Of a DNA stretch of 64,000 nt, positions 13,018-54,660 are shown one piece after another. The stretch covers positions 47,610-111,609 of the forward strand of contig CAIOVX010000091.1 of NCBI GenBank assembly GCA_903861835.1. The letters run 5' to 3'. The notes under the pieces are model-generated. The model had not been told where the DNA came from. It saw nothing but the letters and a program-made list of their open reading frames with translations, and did not search any database. Source of the stretch: Candidatus Firestoneibacteriota bacterium. GTDB lineage: Bacteria > Oederibacteriota > D2-FULL-39-29 > CAIOVX01. The position numbers were made by a program, and so were the translations under genes. Position 1 is the stretch's first letter. Every line of letters starts with the position of its first letter.

Positions 13018-13929
13018 TTACCTGTAGAGTACTTTCGCGCACTCCACCGTATTCTTGATAAGCATCGTCACGGTCAAAGGACCGACGCCTCCGGGAACCG
13101 GAGAGATCATTCCGGCCACTTCTTTTGCTTTCTCGAACTCAACGTCGCCTACCGTCTTCATTCTGGGCTTGCCGGTCTTCTCGTCAATAAGTTGTTTCCC
13201 GTCCGGACCAATGTTAGGCACTCTGTTTATTCCGATGTCAATTACTATTGCGCCGGGCTTTATCCAGTCACCCTTGACCAACCCCGCCTTTCCGACCGCT
13301 ACAAATACTATGTCAGCCCTCCTCACATGCGAAGGAGTATCTTTTGTTGCTATGTGGCAGACCGTAGGTGTCGCAGATTCCGTCAGCGACTGCAGCATCA
13401 GGAGCAGAATCGGTTTGCCTACTATTTCAGAATGACCTACTATCACAACTTCCTTGCCCTTCAGTTCAACTCCGGTACTCTTCAAAAGCTCTACCGCGCC
13501 CATTGCCGTGCAAGGCGCAACTACCTGTTTCCCGAATACCAGCAACCCCATATTGTGAGGGTTTAGTCCTTCTACATCCTTCGAAGGAGATATCTTTACC
13601 TGGACATTCCGCGCGTTAATGCCCTGCGGAAGCGGCATCTGGAGTATTATTCCCGTTACCGACTTGTCCTTATTGAGTTCCTCTACAAATTTCAAAAGTT
13701 CCGGCTCGGTCGTTGCCGCGGAAAGTTCTTTCAGACTATAAATTAGCCCCATCTCTTCGCAGGCCTTCTTCTGCTGATTGGTATAAACCTTTGAAGAAGG
13801 ATTCTCGCCGACCTGTACGGCGACGAGCTGCAACGGGCTGCCTTTAGCCTTGAAAGCTTCTATTTCAGCTTTCAATCCTTCCTTGATCTTTTTCGCAACA
13901 GCTTCACCGTCTATTATTATTGCGGGCAT
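13018..13929 (-). CDS. folD: Bifunctional methylenetetrahydrofolate dehydrogenase / methenyl-THF cyclohydrolase
   Basis: MPAIIIDGEAVAKKIKEGLKAEI plus the YTNQQKKACEEMG motif. The start is refined to the ATG at 13929, which has a GAAAGGAGG RBS. Confidence 0.9.
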   Translation of the reverse strand: MPAIIIDGEAVAKKIKEGLKAEIEAFKAKGSPLQLVAVQVGENPSSKVYTNQQKKACEEMGLIYSLKELSAATTEPELLKFVEELNKDKSVTGIILQMPLPQGINARNVQVKISPSKDVEGLNPHNMGLLVFGKQVVAPCTAMGAVELLKSTGVELKGKEVVIVGHSEIVGKPILLLMLQSLTESATPTVCHIATKDTPSHVRRADIVFVAVGKAGLVKGDWIKPGAIVIDIGINRVPNIGPDGKQLIDEKTGKPRMKTVGDVEFEKAKEVAGMISPVPGGVGPLTVTMLIKNTVECAKVLYR

Positions 13930-14031
13930 TATTAGTCCTCCTTTCATCTTGTAATCCAGCTTGCTTAGGAACTCAGATATTATACTTTTTGAGGGCTGCC
14001 TATTCAACACCATTATTTACCGGAAAAACAA

Positions 14032-14060
14032 GGGAGCCCTGCAGAGCAGGGCTCCCTTTT
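14032..14060. terminator. Bidirectional rho-independent terminator downstream of rubrerythrin
   Basis: A perfect 11-bp stem (GGGAGCCCTGC / GCAGGGCTCCC) with a 3-nt loop and T-runs on both sides. Confidence 0.55.
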
Positions 14061-14087
14061 ACTCGTATTAGTTTAACGCTTCTTTAT

Positions 14088-14666
14088 TTACACGTAACAC
14101 TCACAAGAAACTTCGAAATAGGCTTTGGGGTGCAGGCAAGCGGGACACTGTTCCGGCGCGTTCTCGCCGGTATGGATATGACCGCACTTCTTGCACTTCC
14201 ACTGCACTTTGCCGCTTCTCTTGAAAACCTTTCCTTTCTCTACGTTCTCAAGGAGCGCCCTGTATCTCTTCTCGTGATGCGCTTCTACCGCCGCTATCAG
14301 TTTAAAGGCAGCCGCAACATCATTGAAACCTTCCTGCTCGGCTATCTTTGCCGCTTCGGGATAGATTACCTTGGTCTCTTCGTGCTCGCCTTCGGCCGAA
14401 GCCTTGAGGTTTTCCGCAGTGGTTCCGACTTTTCCGGCAGGAAACTTCGCCGTTATTTCAAGCGCGCCGCCTTCCAGAAAATTAAAGAACCTTTTCGCGT
14501 GCTCTTTTTCGTTCTCCGCGGTATCAAGGAAGATTTCGGATATCTGCTCGTAGCCTTCCTTTTTCGCTTTGGATGCGAAGAAGGTGTACCTGTTCCTTGC
14601 CTGTGACTCACCCGCAAATGAAGCCAGCAGGTTTTTCTCTGTTTTAGATCCTTTCAAGCTTGCCAT
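14088..14666 (-). CDS. rbr: Rubrerythrin
   Basis: Ferritin-like di-iron domain followed by a C-terminal rubredoxin-like CxxC...CxxC domain (WKCKKCGHIH...CPACLHPK). The start is the ATG at 14666, which has a GGAGGA RBS. Confidence 0.9.
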   Translation of the reverse strand: MASLKGSKTEKNLLASFAGESQARNRYTFFASKAKKEGYEQISEIFLDTAENEKEHAKRFFNFLEGGALEITAKFPAGKVGTTAENLKASAEGEHEETKVIYPEAAKIAEQEGFNDVAAAFKLIAAVEAHHEKRYRALLENVEKGKVFKRSGKVQWKCKKCGHIHTGENAPEQCPACLHPKAYFEVSCECYV

Positions 14667-14694
14667 TGTATCCTCCTTTTGAGATCTAATCGCT

Positions 14695-14722
14695 ATAATC
14701 TCTTTTCTAATCTGCGTAATTA
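14695..14722 (-). promoter_or_regulatory. GATTA-array motif (sense: AATTACGCAGATTAGAAAAGAGATTATAGCGATTAG) in the 59-nt dfx-rbr spacer
   Basis: Same core as the sites at 3422, 29070 and 54586. It directly abuts the rbr RBS. Confidence 0.5.
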
Positions 14723-14725
14723 TTT

Positions 14726-15103
14726 TTATGCTTTCCACAATCCGTGCAGTGTGCAATACTCTCTCGCGGAAACCGCGGAGGCTTTGACGCAGAATATCGC
14801 TTCAGGAGCCTGGCCGGGTTTAAGGAATTCCCTGTAGGCCTTGCCGTCGGCTATTAATTCTATCCACTGGATATAGTGCTTGTCTTCCATCGGATGAGCA
14901 ACGCTTCCGACCTTCACCTTGTAACCTTCTGCCGTTTTTTCAATGACCGGGATATGCTTCTCTTTCGCCGCTTCTACACTGTTTTCGACAAGCAGGTCCA
15001 TATTCTGGCCGCAGCATACAAGCGTGCCTCCCGCGCCGTTCACAACCTCAACGATATTGCCGCACAAACCACATTTATAGATCCCTAACTGTTTTGCCGC
15101 CAT
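14726..15103 (-). CDS. dfx: Desulfoferrodoxin (2Fe superoxide reductase)
   Basis: N-terminal desulforedoxin-like motif [11 protein letters not shown]...CCGQNM, plus the C-terminal SOR centre II domain. Confidence 0.85.
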
Positions 15104-15160
15104 AATTTCCTCCTTTTAAACCTTCTCGCTGCTTGTTGATAATTGAAACTTTTCAGGGTT

Positions 15161-15724
15161 TTAGACGCCGAGTTTCTTCCCTATTCTATAGGCTTCGTCA
15201 AGACAGTCCTGCCTTCCAAGTATGGCCCCTTTTCCGTCAACTTTCTTGCAAAAAAGCTCTTCTGCGTATTCGGTATTTACTGTGGCAAAGAAGTTCTTTA
15301 CAACACCCTTAGCGTTAAGGAAAAATTCGTCTTTCTCGTTTCCCTGGGTAGATAAAAAAGCTCCTTTCTTCCGCATAAGTTGTTCCACGCTGTGGTGCAT
15401 ATACGTTCCCATCCAGTAGCACTGAAACCTGTCTATCATAGCTTTCGTCTGGGACGAAACACTTCCGAAAAATATCGGTGAAGCCACAATTATCACATCA
15501 GCAGCAAACACTTTTGGAAAGACGCTCTGCATATCATCTTCTATCTTGCAGTTCCCGTCAGTTCTCGCGTCAGGGCATTCCTGGCAGCCGCGGAAACTTA
15601 GTTTATTCAGAAAGAGCTTTTCCGTTTCTGCCCCGGCTGCCGCCGCCCCTTCTAACGCCTTTTCAAGCAGGAGATCGCAGTTTCCCTTAGGGCGCGGACT
15701 TCCGTTTATTCCGAGCACTTTCAC
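15161..15724 (-). CDS. Flavodoxin-like NAD(P)H-dependent FMN reductase / iron-sulfur flavoprotein-like protein
   Basis: GINGSPRPKGN flavodoxin-fold N-terminus, and a Cys cluster CQECx8C. I refined the start to the GTG at 15724 (MKVLGING), because the rubredoxin stop lies at 15726. Confidence 0.55.
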   Translation of the reverse strand: MKVLGINGSPRPKGNCDLLLEKALEGAAAAGAETEKLFLNKLSFRGCQECPDARTDGNCKIEDDMQSVFPKVFAADVIIVASPIFFGSVSSQTKAMIDRFQCYWMGTYMHHSVEQLMRKKGAFLSTQGNEKDEFFLNAKGVVKNFFATVNTEYAEELFCKKVDGKGAILGRQDCLDEAYRIGKKLGV

Positions 15725-15725
15725 C

Positions 15726-15884
15726 TTACGCCTTCTCAAACATATCTTTGCCTACCATACAGAGAGGGCAAACCCAATCATCCGGAAGATCCTCAAAAAC
15801 GGTTCCCGGAGCTGCCCAGTGTTCAGGATCTCCCTTAGCAGGATCATAAACATAGTCGCAAGCCGCGCATTTATACTTATCCAT
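15726..15884 (-). CDS. rub: Rubredoxin
   Basis: Not in the ORF track because it is only 52 aa. The translation is [52 protein letters not shown], with two CxxC pairs and the canonical rubredoxin signature. It has a GGAGG RBS. Confidence 0.85.
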
Positions 15885-16395
15885 TATTTGCCTCCGGTCT
15901 CACATAAGTAGGCGCGCCCGCCGGAGACTTCCCTTTTTTCACCTGCCTGTAGTACTCATAGGTGAGCGGCTCTTTTGAAGCGTCTATTACTTCGTCATTT
16001 ACAACTTTGCCTATAAAAATGCTGTGAGTGCCTACATCCGTAACGCTCTGCACCTCGCACTCAAACCAGCCTACGGCCCAGTCAAGCGCAACCGGCGCGC
16101 CCGTCTTTCCAAATTTTGACTTTACCGTGGAGAATTTATCAATATCTCTGCCTGATTTAAAACCCCAGGTGCCTATAAAGGTCATAGGCGTGTCTTTGTC
16201 AAGGATGGAAACGGAAAATGCGTTGCTTGCCGCGATATAATCGCAGGTCAGGTTATTTTTATTTATGCACACCGCCACTGATTGCGGCTCTGAGGTCACC
16301 TGAAAAACAGTGTTCACTATCTGGCCGTTGGACTTCCCGTTATTCGTAGAAGCAACCAGGTAAACACCGTAATTTATTTTTTGAACAGCCTTCAT
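15877..16395 (-). CDS. Flavin reductase-like domain protein (NADH:rubredoxin/flavin oxidoreductase type)
   Basis: Flavin reductase fold ([14 protein letters not shown]...SILDKDT). Its stop overlaps the rubredoxin start in ATGGATAA, which fits the split form of a high-molecular-weight rubredoxin arrangement. The likely start is M19 (MKAVQKIN). Confidence 0.65.
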
Positions 16396-16520
16396 GTTTC
16401 TGCTCTCCATCCCCCTCCCGGCCGCCTTTCCGTATTCCGCTGCCGACATGGAGCTTGCGCTGCATCAATATTTTAGGTTTTTTCCTGCCAGAGTAATATG
16501 TCATAAATCATATTGCTAAT

Positions 16521-17432
16521 TTATTGCTTCGCCGGCACCTTGTAATCTGCGATAAGGTCGCATTTGACGGAAAGCTCGCCTTCCGCCGTCTGGGTAGCCG
16601 TATAATCCTCAGTAAGACCGATTTCGTATTTCTTCTCGTCTATCGTGTATTTCTTGCCGGCCTCGGTTATCTTCCCCTTCACTTCCTTAACAGCTTCGGC
16701 TCGCGCGGACATTTTAAATTTATCGAGCGTTTCGTCCTTAAAGAAGAAGTTTATGAACTCGGACTGGGAAGCGTCCTCCGCCTTGTCTATTTTTAGTTTG
16801 GAAACCCCTTTTGAGAGTTGTATTTTGGACGAGGAACTATTGTTGGCGTCTGTAAGGATAGTGCTGCTCGCCACTTCCGAACCGTCGCTCTTATCTATCG
16901 CGGCGATGGCAGTAGCTCCGTAACTGACAGCCCTGTCAACTATCTCAAATATTTCGCCGATCTTCCTGTCTGACAGTCCGTTCATTATGACTGTTTTGCT
17001 GATCAGGTACTTGTATGCGGTTTGCGTTACCGGATTACCGTTTGAGTCTTTCACAACCAGCGAAGTGGGTGTGCCCAGCGTCTGCTGCTTCAGCTGCGCC
17101 GACGGCTGGAATATTTTAAAATCGTCCTTCTTCATGCGGTAAAGCGCCGAGAGCCGGCCAATGATAAAACTGATCTTGCCGTCCACATCCGCTTGCGCTG
17201 ACCGGAGCGAGGTCATTGAACCTGAGGAGACCGCGAGCTTTACATATACACCATCCGGCTTTCCGGTGGCTACTCCCGCCCCGCTGATCTTAAAGGCGGA
17301 GAGCGTGCCGTCGGCGCCCTTTTTTACATCTGCCATTGTCTCGTCTTCAGCCGTTTTGTTCAGGAAATCCTGCGCCCCTGCCGTAAAGACCGCTAAAAAC
17401 AATACTGACAGCACCAATAAAGCACGTTTCAT
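16521..17432 (-). CDS. Secreted SIMPL-domain (DUF541)-like protein
   Basis: Signal peptide. The motif ISGAGVATGKPDGVYVKLAV resembles the start of the SIMPL domain (VSGxGxVxxxPDxAxVxLGV). Confidence 0.4.
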   Translation of the reverse strand: MKRALLVLSVLFLAVFTAGAQDFLNKTAEDETMADVKKGADGTLSAFKISGAGVATGKPDGVYVKLAVSSGSMTSLRSAQADVDGKISFIIGRLSALYRMKKDDFKIFQPSAQLKQQTLGTPTSLVVKDSNGNPVTQTAYKYLISKTVIMNGLSDRKIGEIFEIVDRAVSYGATAIAAIDKSDGSEVASSTILTDANNSSSSKIQLSKGVSKLKIDKAEDASQSEFINFFFKDETLDKFKMSARAEAVKEVKGKITEAGKKYTIDEKKYEIGLTEDYTATQTAEGELSVKCDLIADYKVPAKQ

Positions 17433-17450
17433 TTTTGTCTCCGTGACGCC

Positions 17451-18527
17451 TCAGACGTTGAATCTGATTGAAAGTATGTCGCCGTCTTCAACTATATAGT
17501 CTTTCCCTTTAAGGTAGACCTTGCCGGTCTCATGCAGTTTCTTCTCGTCGCCTTCGGCCTCTGCCAAATCGCGATATTTCATCACCTCAGCCCTGATAAA
17601 ACCTTTCTCAAGGTCGGAGTGTATGGCTCCCGCCGCCTGAGGAGCCGAGGAGCCGCGGGGAATGGTCCACTGTTTCACTTCATCAGTGCCGACCCCGAAG
17701 AACGAAATCAAGTTCAGCGCCTCTATGCAGGTGCGTTTAAGCGTGTCAACCGCGGGTTCTTTTATGCCGAGTTCCGCGAGGAAGGTATTCCTGTCATCCG
17801 CGGATTCAAAAGCCGCTATCTCCGATTCTACCTTTACCGAGACCTGCATCCAGAAGATGCGCTGTTTTTCGTGTTCTTTTTTATAGGACTCAAGCTTCGA
17901 TGTATTCTTCAAATCCGCCTCCGAAACATTGAGGACCACTATAAGCTCTTTCAGCGTGAGCAGAGGATACGAAACCAGGTATTTCATATCCTCGGGCGTA
18001 AGCGTCAAAAGGCGCAGGGGCAGTTCGGCTTCAAGCTGGGCCTTCATCTTCGCGAGCACATCCCTCTCTTTCATCATCTTCTCTTCGCTCGTCCGTTTCA
18101 AGGTCTGGTTCAGGCGGTCAAGCCTCTTGTCAATAAAAGCCAGGTCATTGAAGATGAGCTCCGAATTGATCTCGTCTATGTCCCGCTTTGAGTCAACCGA
18201 CCCGTTTATGTGATAGACAGCTTCATCCTGAAAATCCCGGACAATGTGGCAGAGCACATCGGCTCCATCAAGCGCCTTCAGAACCTCTTCCTTCGCGAAC
18301 GAACCCTTTTCAAGTTTCGGGATAAACTCCACGTTTAGGCGCGCCCGCGCCTCGCTTTCCGGCTTATACAGTTCAACAAGCTTTTCGAATCTCGGATCTA
18401 TTATTTCCGCGAGCCCGGAAACCGGCTTGTTCGCGGCCAGTTCATTTTCCGTAAGCTTATGTTTCGTGATAAGTTCAAAGAGCGTCTTCTTGCCTGTCTG
18501 TGGCAGTCCAATTATTCCTATCTTCAT
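17451..18527 (-). CDS. ychF: Redox-regulated ribosome-binding ATPase YchF
   Basis: P-loop GLPQTGKKTLF, and a C-terminal TGS domain (KGFIRAEVMKY...YIVEDGDIL). Confidence 0.9.
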   Translation of the reverse strand: MKIGIIGLPQTGKKTLFELITKHKLTENELAANKPVSGLAEIIDPRFEKLVELYKPESEARARLNVEFIPKLEKGSFAKEEVLKALDGADVLCHIVRDFQDEAVYHINGSVDSKRDIDEINSELIFNDLAFIDKRLDRLNQTLKRTSEEKMMKERDVLAKMKAQLEAELPLRLLTLTPEDMKYLVSYPLLTLKELIVVLNVSEADLKNTSKLESYKKEHEKQRIFWMQVSVKVESEIAAFESADDRNTFLAELGIKEPAVDTLKRTCIEALNLISFFGVGTDEVKQWTIPRGSSAPQAAGAIHSDLEKGFIRAEVMKYRDLAEAEGDEKKLHETGKVYLKGKDYIVEDGDILSIRFNV

Positions 18528-29019: not shown

Positions 29020-29106
29020 GATTACGCGGATTACTTAAACCGATTACTCAGATTAAACAATGTTTACCTTAATCCGTGTAATCTCTTTTCTAATCAGCGT
29101 AATCAC
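29020..29106 (-). promoter_or_regulatory. Extended GATTA/TAATC inverted array upstream of alaS (sense: GATTACGCTGATTAGAAAAGAGATTACACGGATTAAGG...TAATCtgagTAATCggtttaagTAATCcgcgTAATC)
   Basis: 4 GATTA units followed by 4 TAATC units, 50-140 nt upstream of the alaS start. Confidence 0.5.
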
Positions 29107-54585: not shown

Positions 54586-54660
54586 GGATTACGAAATGCA
54601 ATTACGCAGATTACACCATTATCTAATCTCCGTAATCTGTTTTCCAAATCTGCGTAATCA
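54586..54660 (+). promoter_or_regulatory. Extended GATTA/TAATC inverted array upstream of fumA (GGATTACGAAATGCAATTACGCAGATTACAcc...cTAATCtccgTAATCtgttttccaaATCTGCGTAATca)
   Basis: Same core and same overall order (GATTA arm, then TAATC arm, then gene) as the alaS site. The arms AATTACGCAGATTAC and AATCTGCGTAATCA are near-perfect reverse complements. Confidence 0.5.

What the first reader, a model, noticed from the sequence alone, without database searches (positions are those of the whole stretch)
14088..16395. Five-gene oxygen/ROS-detoxification operon with an untracked 52-aa rubredoxin overlapping the flavin reductase stop
The minus-strand order is flavin reductase, rubredoxin, flavodoxin-like FMN reductase, desulfoferrodoxin, rubrerythrin. 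Together these form a complete electron chain from NAD(P)H through flavin and rubredoxin to superoxide reductase and rubrerythrin peroxidase, typical of strict anaerobes. The rubredoxin (15726-15884) falls below the ORF-track size cutoff. Its start overlaps the flavin reductase stop in ATGGATAA, a translational-coupling signature. This looks like a split version of the fused high-molecular-weight rubredoxin. A GATTA motif copy sits between dfx and rbr, so rbr may have its own internal promoter or operator.
Basis: seen in the sequence. Interest (0 to 1): 0.5.

Follow-up and report, generated by a model that had tools for sequence, protein, structure and literature searches.

The report
Oxygen-defence operon with split rubredoxin reductase
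A Firestonebacteria genome carries an ordinary five-gene cluster for disarming superoxide and peroxide, in which a flavin-reductase/rubredoxin protein that is usually fused is encoded as two overlapping genes; this is real but a common and unsurprising variant.

Summary
On the minus strand of 14088-16410 lie five tightly packed genes: a flavin reductase (PF01613), a 52-aa rubredoxin overlapping it in ATGGATAA, a cysteine-rich FMN_red flavoprotein, desulfoferrodoxin and rubrerythrin. One strong terminator hairpin follows rubrerythrin. The rubredoxin ORF is real. It is intact and under purifying selection in four related species, has a conserved internal Shine-Dalgarno, and is already called in public annotations.

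"Split high-molecular-weight rubredoxin" is well supported. The two window proteins joined end to end align with a fused 231-aa homologue at 64% identity. A syntenic relative carries the fused gene at the same position. The rubredoxin shares a rare C-[K/M]-V-G-K-D signature with exactly the fused proteins of its own reductase clade. The split is not rare: 15 of 82 metagenomic copies are split, with varied junctions.

The electron chain NAD(P)H to flavin to rubredoxin to SOR/Rbr is inferred, not shown.

The "GATTA" copy is one of four copies in the window of a 35-nt intergenic repeat array. The array is conserved in Firestonebacteria MAGs but absent from this spacer in all three relatives checked, so a dedicated rbr promoter is unproven.

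Verdict: a new member of a known kind, of low interest. The GATTA array is the only unexplained item.

The parts
16495..16514 (.). Conserved palindrome AATATG-N8-CATATT just downstream of the preceding gene's stop. It is a candidate operator overlapping the position where a -35 element would lie.
   Evidence: It occurs once in the window (about 0.15 expected by chance). The block CAATATGAyTTAnGrCATATTAC is kept in three relatives (L009, L026, L029) while the rest of the spacer diverges. Its function is inferred only.
16470..16475 (-). TAAAAT, a candidate -10 element of the operon promoter (weak call).
   Evidence: Relatives have TATAAT (L026) or TATAAG (L029) about 20 nt downstream of the palindrome. 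The consensus scan did not report it because there is no good -35. This is an inference.
15877..16410 (-). Flavin reductase (FMN-binding split-barrel, PF01613), 177 aa. It is the N-terminal 'half' of a high-molecular-weight-rubredoxin-type protein.
   Evidence: Pfam E 1.2e-33. The best solved relative is 1i0r, E 6.8e-45. 95 of the 120 nearest homologues carry a C-terminal rubredoxin domain. The start at 16410 is conserved in relatives.
15726..15884 (-). Rubredoxin, 52 aa, with cysteines C6, C9, C39 and C42. Its ATG overlaps the reductase stop (ATGGATAA), and a GGAGG Shine-Dalgarno lies 7 nt upstream inside the reductase gene.
   Evidence: PF00301 E 2.8e-22; NF045768 90.9 bits against a cutoff of 90. 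The ORF is intact in L009, L026, L029 and L005 with 11-18 synonymous codon differences each. The SD is conserved. The exact protein is on many public contigs and is called as a gene there.
15161..15724 (-). FMN_red-family flavoprotein, 187 aa, GTG start one base after the rubredoxin stop. It carries five near-invariant cysteines (C47, C50, C59, C102, C159).
   Evidence: PF03358 E 1.7e-24. Cysteine conservation was measured in 120 homologues. The AlphaFold model has pLDDT 94; its best PDB fold matches are flavone reductase 7d38, NAD(P)H:quinone oxidoreductases and azoreductases. The family lies in oxidative-stress clusters in L111 and L113.
15136..15154 (-). Conserved spacer motif GAAAAGTTTCAATTATCAA between the FMN_red gene and dfx.
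   Evidence: The core TTTCAATTATCAA is identical in the window, L026 and L029 while the flanks differ. Its function is unknown.
14726..15103 (-). Desulfoferrodoxin (2Fe superoxide reductase), 125 aa, with an AAAGGAGG Shine-Dalgarno.
   Evidence: TIGR00320 206 bits against a cutoff of 147. Both PF06397 and PF01880 domains are present.
14687..14721 (-). GATTA array: AATTACGCAGATTAGAAAAGAGATTATAGCGATTA. It begins 4 nt after the dfx stop and ends 20 nt before the rbr ATG.
   Evidence: It is one of four array sites in the window. 12 of 13 half-units are intergenic, although only 6.8% of the window is intergenic. It is absent from this spacer in L005, L026 and L029.
14088..14666 (-). Rubrerythrin, 192 aa (diiron four-helix bundle plus a C-terminal rubredoxin-like domain).
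   Evidence: NF045767 295 bits against a cutoff of 200; PF02915 plus PF21349.
14030..14058 (-). Intrinsic terminator hairpin (13 pairs, 9 of them G-C, followed by a T run) that ends the operon.
   Evidence: It is the only minus-strand terminator-like site between 13500 and 17600. folD downstream has its own TTGAAT-17-TATAAT promoter, which is conserved in L026.

Best explanation
This is a rubredoxin-centred oxidative-stress operon of an anaerobic Candidatus Firestonebacteria bacterium.

Proposed mechanism:
1. The five genes are most likely transcribed from one promoter upstream of the flavin reductase, and transcription stops at the hairpin after rubrerythrin.
2. The FMN flavin reductase takes electrons from NAD(P)H and passes them to the small rubredoxin.
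3. Reduced rubredoxin feeds desulfoferrodoxin, which converts superoxide to H2O2.
4. Reduced rubredoxin also feeds rubrerythrin, which converts H2O2 to water.
5. The third gene encodes a cysteine-rich FMN flavoprotein of an uncharacterised family tied to oxidative-stress clusters. It probably acts as a second reductase or scavenger in the same defence.

The reductase and the rubredoxin are the two halves of a protein that in most relatives is a single fused polypeptide (the high-molecular-weight rubredoxin architecture). In this lineage the linker was interrupted. The rubredoxin is now made from its own start codon, coupled to termination of the reductase gene.

Shown here: gene identities, colinearity with the fusions, conservation of the split and of its ribosome-binding site, the terminator, and synteny. 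Inferred: co-transcription, the electron path, and the role of the third gene.
For: Family assignments:
- All are above curated cutoffs for rubredoxin, desulfoferrodoxin and rubrerythrin.

Packing of the genes:
- The junctions are an 8-nt overlap, a 1-nt gap, and spacers of 57 nt and 59 nt. There is a single terminator after rbr.

Split of a fused protein:
- 95 of 120 nearest homologues are fused in the order reductase then rubredoxin.
- The concatenated window proteins align with fused P0013 over 227 residues at 64% identity with 4 gap positions. The fused protein has a Met exactly where the window rubredoxin starts.
- A syntenic relative, L008, has the fused gene followed by FMN_red, dfx, rbr and folD.
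- The rubredoxin's unusual C-P-x-C-[K/M]-V-G-K-D motif occurs among fused proteins only in the 8 that form the window's own reductase clade. 106 of 120 free rubredoxins have Gly at that position.

The split is real and maintained:
- The same overlapping arrangement is found in L001, L009, L026-28, L029 and L005-7, at 69-100% identity to the window.
- These loci keep a conserved GGAGG, show synonymous drift (for example ATGGACAAATATAA in L009) and have intact ORFs.

Functional linkage:
- Dfx and/or Rbr lie within about 4 kb of the reductase in 22 of 51 metagenomic loci that have enough flank.
- The one related lineage that lost the rubredoxin (L002-4) also lacks dfx.
- The FMN_red family sits in clusters with Fur-family, rubredoxin, FDP, SOR, rubrerythrin and thioredoxin-reductase genes in L113, and with ferritin, desulforedoxin, Rbr and SOR in L111.

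Biochemistry:
- Hrb is described as an FMN plus [Fe(SCys)4] NAD(P)H dehydrogenase, and rubredoxin as an electron donor to rubrerythrin, in the review PMC12288474.
- Rubredoxin as donor to SOR is established knowledge for Desulfovibrio and Clostridium.
Against: - There are no transcript, protein or activity data.
- The known partner of Moorella Hrb is a flavodiiron protein. No FDP-like motif (H-x-E-x-D-H) occurs in any window ORF.
- The closest solved relative of the reductase is an unfused archaeal enzyme (1i0r; I recall it as A. fulgidus ferric reductase). A rubredoxin-independent job is therefore possible.
- The 120 best database hits of the rubredoxin are all free rubredoxins at 52-81% identity. 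Its descent from a fused domain rests on one signature and on synteny, not on a resolved tree.
- In relatives L002 and L008 the genes are separated by 150-460-nt gaps, so single-transcript organisation is not universal.
- A repeat array sits in front of rbr and could uncouple its expression.
- The direction of change (fission rather than fusion) rests on an unbootstrapped NJ tree and on counts.
Confidence: 0.8

Rival explanations
1. The flavin reductase is a general NAD(P)H:flavin or ferric-iron reductase, like the unfused archaeal homologue. It does not serve the neighbouring rubredoxin, which is reduced by some other enzyme encoded elsewhere. On this view the adjacency is only a relic of an old fusion.
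For: The best solved relative is the unfused 169-aa protein 1i0r (E 6.8e-45). 25 of the 120 closest homologues, and 4 of 82 metagenomic copies, have no rubredoxin at all. L002-4 keep the reductase without a rubredoxin.
Against: The overlap, the conserved internal Shine-Dalgarno and purifying selection on the rubredoxin across species at 69-88% identity argue for maintained co-expression. Most of the family keeps the two domains physically fused.
Confidence: 0.1
2. The split is an assembly or sequencing frameshift in what is really a single fused gene.
For: The two frames differ by one base at the junction. One metagenomic 'split' (L093) does look like a frameshifted copy without a usable start.
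Against: The same two-gene arrangement appears in independent assemblies of at least five related populations (L001, L009, L026-28, L029, L005-7). Their junction sequences differ (ATGGATAA, ATGGACAAATATAA, TTGGATAA) and all keep a Shine-Dalgarno.
Confidence: 0.01
3. The cluster is not one operon. Rubrerythrin (and perhaps dfx) is transcribed or regulated separately, with the GATTA array acting as a promoter-proximal operator or as an RNA-level element in front of rbr.
For: The array is a non-random, strictly intergenic element. Single copies elsewhere point toward a gene start 20-95 nt downstream, some directly after a terminator or tRNA where a promoter is needed (window aroC; L017, L018, L019, L021, L025). 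Orthologous copies are retained across species at 76-88% nucleotide identity (L021, L014, L022). dfx and rbr have their own strong AAAGGAGG ribosome-binding sites.
Against: The array is absent from the dfx-rbr spacer in L005, L026 and L029. It matches no sigma-70 consensus, although the genome uses canonical ones (folD). There is no terminator between dfx and rbr. The spacer RNA is not unusually structured (z -1.0). Many copies also abut the 3' end of the upstream gene, as selfish REP-like repeats do.
Confidence: 0.3
4. The cysteine-rich FMN_red protein, not the flavin reductase, is the main NAD(P)H entry point or the terminal O2/H2O2 reductase of the cluster. It would functionally replace the flavodiiron protein that accompanies Hrb in Moorella.
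For: It follows the reductase/rubredoxin unit in every Firestonebacteria-type locus, whether fused, split or without rubredoxin. No FDP-like motif (H-x-E-x-D-H) is encoded in the window. The family lies in oxidative-stress clusters in two other lineages. Its fold relatives are NAD(P)H-dependent quinone reductases, azoreductases and flavone reductase. Five cysteines are near-invariant.
Against: No biochemical data exist for this family. It is not adjacent to the reductase in the 79 other metagenomic loci. In L109 it sits among housekeeping genes. It fails the Isf cysteine-motif test.
Confidence: 0.2

Closest known systems
High-molecular-weight rubredoxin (Hrb) of Moorella thermoacetica and its rbr-fprA-hrb / rbo-rub five-gene cluster (Das et al. 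2001; Silaghi-Dumitrescu et al. 2003, as cited in PMC12288474)
   Same: The parts list overlaps: an FMN flavin-reductase module plus a [Fe(SCys)4] rubredoxin module, superoxide reductase, rubredoxin and rubrerythrin clustered together. The window's two proteins are colinear with fused 229-231-aa homologues.
   Different: Here the reductase and rubredoxin are two overlapping genes, not one polypeptide. No flavodiiron protein is present; a cysteine-rich FMN_red protein occupies the next slot. All five genes are on one strand rather than in two divergent operons.
Desulfovibrio vulgaris rbo-rub-roo operon and the Clostridium acetobutylicum NROR-rubredoxin-desulfoferrodoxin / reverse-rubrerythrin system (established knowledge; reviewed in PMC12288474)
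   Same: The logic is the same: NAD(P)H to a flavoprotein reductase, to rubredoxin, to SOR and rubrerythrin. The Dfx is of the 2Fe type with an N-terminal desulforedoxin-like domain.
   Different: The rubredoxin reductase here is a PF01613 split-barrel FMN protein, not a pyridine-nucleotide-disulfide-type NROR. The gene order differs. No PerR/Fur gene was found in the window with a simple motif scan.
PDB 1i0r/1i0s, an unfused archaeal flavin reductase-like protein (deposited as 'conserved hypothetical protein'; I recall it as Archaeoglobus fulgidus ferric reductase)
   Same: It is the closest solved relative of the reductase gene (E 6.8e-45 over residues 19-183). It is also a stand-alone protein of about 170 aa.
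   Different: No rubredoxin partner is known to me for it. The window protein's nearest neighbours are overwhelmingly rubredoxin fusions.
Iron-sulfur flavoprotein (Isf) of Methanosarcina thermophila
   Same: Both have an FMN_red/flavodoxin-like fold, a cysteine cluster in the loop after the second beta-strand, and an association with oxidative stress.
   Different: The Isf motif is CX2CX2CX5-7C (PMC3164229). The window family has CX2CX8C plus two distant invariant cysteines. There is no sequence hit to Isf structures at E<=0.001, and Isf is not among the top 50 fold matches.
REP/BIME-type intergenic repeats, and tandem operator arrays of response-regulator or ribbon-helix-helix proteins (comparison for the GATTA array only; from general knowledge)
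   Same: The array is short, multi-copy and strictly intergenic. It often occurs as inverted pairs between co-directional genes. Its direct-repeat boxes have an average spacing of 10.5 nt.
   Different: Single arrays are not palindromic and do not fold (z -0.5 to -1.0). No associated transposase or regulator was identified. There is no match in Rfam or in the searched literature.

Membership tests
High-molecular-weight rubredoxin (Hrb) | N-terminal flavin-reductase-like FMN domain (PF01613 type) | tested here: met
   PF01613 E 1.2e-33. The nearest homologues are PF01613+PF00301 fusions of 224-242 aa.
High-molecular-weight rubredoxin (Hrb) | C-terminal rubredoxin domain on the same polypeptide | tested here: not met
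   The reductase ends at TAA 15879-15877. The rubredoxin is a separate ORF in another frame with its own ATG and Shine-Dalgarno. It is colinear with the fusions, so this is a split homologue, not a member in the strict single-chain sense.
High-molecular-weight rubredoxin (Hrb) | Sequence relationship to the characterised Moorella thermoacetica Hrb itself | not testable with these tools
   The Moorella sequence and the Das 2001 paper were not available. No database name 'Hrb' is attached to any hit.
High-molecular-weight rubredoxin (Hrb) | NAD(P)H-dependent reduction of a flavodiiron protein partner encoded nearby | tested here: not met
   No ORF with the FDP diiron motif H-x-E-x-D-H occurs in the 64-kb window. 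Enzyme activity itself is not testable here.
Rubredoxin | About 50-aa protein with CxxC...CxxC and a family model score above cutoff | tested here: met
   C6/C9/C39/C42 are present. PF00301 scores 78.9 bits against 23; NF045768 scores 90.9 against 90.
Desulfoferrodoxin (2Fe-SOR) | N-terminal desulforedoxin-like FeS4 domain plus a C-terminal ferrous SOR domain | tested here: met
   PF06397 E 1.1e-15 and PF01880 E 1.8e-21. The TIGR00320 equivalog scores 206 bits against 146.9.
Rubrerythrin | Diiron four-helix-bundle domain plus a C-terminal rubredoxin-like domain | tested here: met
   PF02915 E 2.6e-31 and PF21349 E 1.2e-13. The NF045767 equivalog scores 295 bits against 200.
Iron-sulfur flavoprotein (Isf) | Compact cysteine motif CX2CX2CX5-7C ligating a [4Fe-4S] cluster | tested here: not met
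   The window and 120 homologues have C47-X2-C50-X8-C59 without the third cysteine. C102 and C159 are also near-invariant. The motif definition is taken from PMC3164229.
Iron-sulfur flavoprotein (Isf) | Flavodoxin-like FMN_red fold | tested here: met
   PF03358 E 1.7e-24. The AlphaFold model has pLDDT 94 and matches FMN-dependent NAD(P)H oxidoreductases.
Single five-gene operon | Co-transcription of all five genes | not testable with these tools
   Only indirect evidence exists: overlaps or short spacers, and one terminator after rbr.

The most novel reading that the evidence does not exclude
The 35-nt GATTA array in front of rbr may be a copy of a previously undescribed cis-acting element. 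The array has four GATTA boxes at offsets 0, 9, 21 and 30, with consensus GATTACGCnGATTAGAAAAGAGATTACrCnGATTA. It would be an operator or promoter array read by an unknown DNA-binding factor, conserved in Firestonebacteria and also seen in Omnitrophica, FCPU426, Planctomycetales and Clostridia MAGs. In this species it would have been newly recruited to control rubrerythrin independently of the rest of the oxidative-stress operon.
Probability: 0.2. Interest if true: 0.55.

Novelty: new member of a known kind. Interest (0 to 1): 0.2.

Why it matters
The finding adds little new biology. Rubredoxin-dependent superoxide and peroxide detoxification is textbook for anaerobes, and the fused reductase-rubredoxin is characterised.

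What is useful:
1. It documents, for the barely studied candidate phylum Firestonebacteria, the likely oxygen-defence module.
2. It gives a clean natural series of fused, split and rubredoxin-lost versions of the same gene in the same genomic slot. This series shows that the split form is a maintained, translationally coupled two-gene unit and that fission has happened repeatedly.
3. It warns annotators that the 52-aa rubredoxin is sometimes missed, especially where it has a TTG start.
4. It points to an uncharacterised five-cysteine FMN flavoprotein family that travels with oxidative-stress genes.
5. It points to an unexplained, widely conserved intergenic repeat.

Tried and rejected
- **Frameshift artefact:** rejected, because independent assemblies and species share the split with different junction sequences.
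- **Programmed +1 frameshifting to remake a fused protein:** considered, because a Shine-Dalgarno lies upstream of a stop, as in prfB. Rejected because tRNA-Gly at GGA cannot re-pair in the +1 frame, and because the stop position is not conserved (in L009 it lies 6 nt later).
- **The GATTA array as a sigma-70 promoter:** rejected. No acceptable -10 element is present in the copies.
- **The GATTA array as a known RNA family:** no Rfam hit in the operon region.
- **Literature on the array:** no paper holds the 14-mers.
- **Phage origin of the array:** no match in IMG/VR.
- **The third gene as an Isf:** there is no PDB sequence hit to Isf, Isf is not among the top fold matches, and the cysteine motif differs.
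- **A Fur/PerR regulator or a flavodiiron protein in the window:** simple motif scans found none. These scans are crude, so absence is not proven.
- **Das et al. 2001 (PMC95040):** could not be read.
- **Database names of fused homologues:** never say 'Hrb'.
- **A conserved Hrb + FMN_red module beyond this lineage:** not found. Only 1 of 80 metagenomic loci has it, and that locus is a close relative.


Full report
**What is in the sequence**

The minus strand between 14088 and about 16410 carries five close-packed ORFs.

| Gene | Coordinates | Evidence |
|---|---|---|
| Flavin reductase | 15877-16410 | PF01613, E 1.2e-33 |
| Rubredoxin, 52 aa | 15726-15884 | PF00301, E 2.8e-22; NCBIfam rubredoxin equivalog 90.9 bits vs cutoff 90 |
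| FMN_red flavoprotein, 187 aa | 15161-15724 | PF03358, E 1.7e-24 |
| Desulfoferrodoxin | 14726-15103 | Both domains; TIGR00320 206 bits vs 147 |
| Rubrerythrin | 14088-14666 | NF045767, 295 bits vs 200 |

- The reductase stop and the rubredoxin start overlap in ATGGATAA at 15884-15877.
- The rubredoxin stop is followed after one base by the GTG start of the FMN_red gene.
- The last two spacers are 57 and 59 nt. Both dfx and rbr carry AAAGGAGG ribosome-binding sites.
- The only minus-strand terminator-like hairpin in 13500-17600 is at 14058-14030, directly after rbr (13 pairs, 9 of them G-C).
- The next gene, folD, has its own TTGAAT-17-TATAAT promoter.

Three details need correction: the reductase start is more likely 16410 than 16395, the FMN_red gene starts with GTG, and rubrerythrin starts at 14666.

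**Source organism**

- The closest named proteins are from Candidatus Firestonebacteria MAGs.
- Kilobase stretches of the window match Firestonebacteria contigs at 76-88% nucleotide identity.
- The identical locus occurs in public metagenome contigs, for example JGI 3300022555 (L001). There the 52-aa rubredoxin is already a called gene.

**Is the rubredoxin gene real?**

Yes. The ORF is intact in four related populations: L009 and L029 (reductase about 88% identical), L026-28 (FMN_red 85%) and L005-7 (69%).
- Each shows 11-18 synonymous codon differences, and all four cysteines are kept.
- A GGAGG or GAGGAG lies 6-8 nt upstream of its start, inside the reductase coding sequence, in the window, L009 and L005.
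- The junction itself drifts: ATGGATAA in the window and L005, ATGGACAAATATAA in L009, and TTGGATAA in L026 and L029.
- Where the start is TTG, two of three public gene calls miss the gene.

This variation rules out a sequencing frameshift and shows a maintained, translationally coupled pair.

**Is it a split high-molecular-weight rubredoxin?**

- *Domain order.* Of the 120 nearest homologues of the reductase, 95 carry a C-terminal CxxC...CxxC rubredoxin domain, giving about 224-242 aa in total. The order is always reductase then rubredoxin.
- *Colinearity.* The window's two proteins joined end to end align with the fused protein P0013 over 227 residues at 64% identity with four gap positions. 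P0013 has a Met exactly where the window rubredoxin begins. P0086 gives 62%.
- *Synteny.* This gives a natural series, in which every version is followed by folD:

| Loci | Reductase/rubredoxin unit | Genes that follow |
|---|---|---|
| L008 | Fused, 228 aa | FMN_red, a short rubrerythrin-like gene, dfx, rbr |
| Window, L005, L009, L026, L029 | Split | FMN_red, dfx, rbr |
| L002-4 | Reductase alone, then 237 non-coding bases | No rubredoxin and no dfx |

- *Shared signature.* The window rubredoxin has M (K in L005) instead of the usual G after the second CxxC, in the motif C-P-x-C-[K/M]-V-G-K-D-x-F-E-K. Among fused proteins, K at this position occurs in 8. Those 8 are exactly the fused members of the reductase-domain clade that holds the window protein. 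106 of 120 free rubredoxins have G there. The two halves have therefore evolved together.
- *Caveat.* The best 120 database hits of the rubredoxin are all free rubredoxins, and the tree is a simple NJ tree without support values.

**How unusual is the split?**

It is not unusual. In 80 metagenomic loci anchored on the reductase (82 copies):

| State | Copies |
|---|---|
| Fused | 61 |
| Split (separate rubredoxin ORF within 250 nt on the same strand) | 15 |
| No rubredoxin | 4 |
| At a contig end | 2 |

The split junctions are of several kinds:
- ATGA overlaps.
- One-base gaps.
- In-frame stops followed by a Shine-Dalgarno and ATG.
- Spacers of 19-123 nt.

One of the split copies looks like a damaged gene. 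Unfused forms are scattered through the tree. This points to repeated fission, or less parsimoniously to repeated fusion. Dfx and/or Rbr lie within about 4 kb in 22 of 51 loci that have enough flank.

**The third gene**

- The family has near-invariant cysteines at C47, C50, C59, C102 and C159 in 120 homologues.
- The Isf motif is CX2CX2CX5-7C (PMC3164229). Here it is CX2CX8C, so this is not an Isf in the strict sense.
- A confident model (pLDDT 94) most resembles flavone reductase 7d38, NAD(P)H:quinone oxidoreductases and azoreductases.
- The gene follows the reductase unit in all Firestonebacteria-type loci, but in none of the 79 other metagenomic loci.
- In two of three other lineages sampled it sits in oxidative-stress clusters. 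L113 has a Fur-family gene, rubredoxin, FDP, rubrerythrins, ferritin, SOR and thioredoxin reductase. L111 has ferritin, an FNR-like reductase, desulforedoxin, Rbr and SOR.
- Its role in defence is inferred by association only.

**Mechanism**

From the known biochemistry of the families, the most likely flow is NAD(P)H to reductase-FMN to rubredoxin, and from rubredoxin to Dfx and Rbr.
- Hrb as an FMN/[Fe(SCys)4] NAD(P)H dehydrogenase, and rubredoxin as donor to rubrerythrin, are summarised in PMC12288474.
- Rubredoxin as donor to SOR comes from general knowledge.
- The joint absence of rubredoxin and dfx in L002-4 fits this path (a single case).
- No FDP-like motif (H-x-E-x-D-H) occurs in any window ORF.
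- None of this has been shown experimentally.

**Regulatory sequence**

- A palindrome AATATG-N8-CATATT at 16495-16514 is conserved in L009, L026 and L029 within otherwise divergent spacer. A TAAAAT/TATAAT/TATAAG element follows it.
- TTTCAATTATCAA in the FMN_red-dfx spacer is also conserved.
- Both are candidate operator or promoter elements without an assigned factor.

**The GATTA motif**

- The dfx-rbr spacer holds a 35-nt array at 14687-14721. It has four boxes at offsets 0, 9, 21 and 30.
- Near-identical arrays lie between a secretin gene and aroC (3413-3448), between recX and alaS (inverted pair, 29020-29104), and between mdh and fumarase (inverted pair, 54590-54659).
- Of 13 half-units, 12 are intergenic, although only 6.8% of the window is intergenic.
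- The array recurs in three Firestonebacteria MAGs, often near contig ends, and in single MAGs of four other phyla. In one locus it is tandemly extended.
- Orthologous copies upstream of aroC and alaS are retained in relatives.
- The dfx-rbr spacer of L026 and L029 instead carries a CCGT(T/G)TA heptamer repeat, and L005 has neither repeat.
- The array does not resemble a sigma-70 promoter and single copies do not fold as RNA.
- It has no Rfam, literature or viral match.
- It is real and unexplained. Its presence here is a species-specific addition, so a dedicated rbr promoter or operator remains possible but unproven.

**Verdict**

This is an ordinary rubredoxin-based oxidative-stress operon of an anaerobe. 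The reductase-rubredoxin fusion is split into two coupled genes, which is a recurrent natural variant. It is a new member of a known kind and of low interest. The GATTA array and the five-cysteine flavoprotein family are the only items that might repay further work.

Noticed in passing
window 3413-3448 (-), 14687-14721 (-), 29020-29055 (+) with 29070-29104 (-), 54590-54625 (+) with 54624-54659 (-); also L012, L014-L025: A 35-nt array of four GATTA boxes (consensus GATTACGCnGATTAGAAAAGAGATTACrCnGATTA, unit period 21-22 nt) occurs only in intergenic spacers, singly or as inverted pairs. It is conserved in three Firestonebacteria MAGs and seen in Omnitrophica, FCPU426, Planctomycetales and Clostridia MAGs. 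It has no Rfam, literature or viral match, and its function is unknown.
   Followed up: partly
window 16495-16514: The palindrome AATATG-N8-CATATT upstream of the flavin reductase gene is conserved in three related species (L009, L026, L029) within otherwise divergent spacer. It is a candidate operator of the operon.
   Followed up: partly
window 15136-15154: GAAAAGTTTCAATTATCAA lies in the FMN_red-dfx spacer. The core TTTCAATTATCAA is identical in L026 and L029. It contains a Fur-box-like half-site (TGATAAT on the other strand). It was not tested further.
   Followed up: no
L026 about 7005-7035 and L029 about 3418-3436 (dfx-rbr spacer of relatives): Where the window has the GATTA array, the sister species carry a tandem heptamer repeat CCGT(T/G)TA (about 4 copies in L026, 2-3 in L029). 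This spacer seems to collect different short repeats in different species.
   Followed up: no
L002-L004 (Candidatus Firestonebacteria RIFOXYC2-type contigs), 5513-5750 in L002: In this relative the reductase stands alone, followed by 237 non-coding bases. Both the rubredoxin and desulfoferrodoxin are absent, while two rubrerythrin-type genes remain. This looks like joint loss of the donor and its acceptor.
   Followed up: partly
L027 and L028, 5841-5999: The rubredoxin ORF starts with TTG in this relative. It is not called as a gene in two of three public assemblies, a small systematic annotation gap.
   Followed up: yes
L057 (1057-2422) and L097 (3305-4675): Two fused reductase-rubredoxin genes lie in tandem in these metagenomic contigs, indicating a local duplication of the Hrb-type gene.
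   Followed up: no
L113 319-8579 and L111 3774-8387: The five-cysteine FMN_red family sits inside large oxidative-stress clusters in other lineages. L113 has a Fur-family regulator, rubredoxin, flavodiiron protein, rubrerythrins, ferritin, neelaredoxin-type SOR, glutaredoxin and thioredoxin reductase. L111 has NifU, ferritin, an FNR-like reductase, desulforedoxin, Rbr and SOR.
   Followed up: partly
window 16521-17432 (-): A 303-aa protein with an N-terminal signal-like segment has no Pfam or NCBIfam hit. It is conserved immediately upstream of the operon in L005, L009, L026 and L029, between ychF and the reductase gene.
   Followed up: no
window 13920-14606 (+) and 15546-15911 (+): Long antisense ORFs (228 and 121 aa) lie opposite rbr and opposite the rubredoxin/reductase genes. 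I took them as by-products of the coding strand and did not examine them.
   Followed up: no
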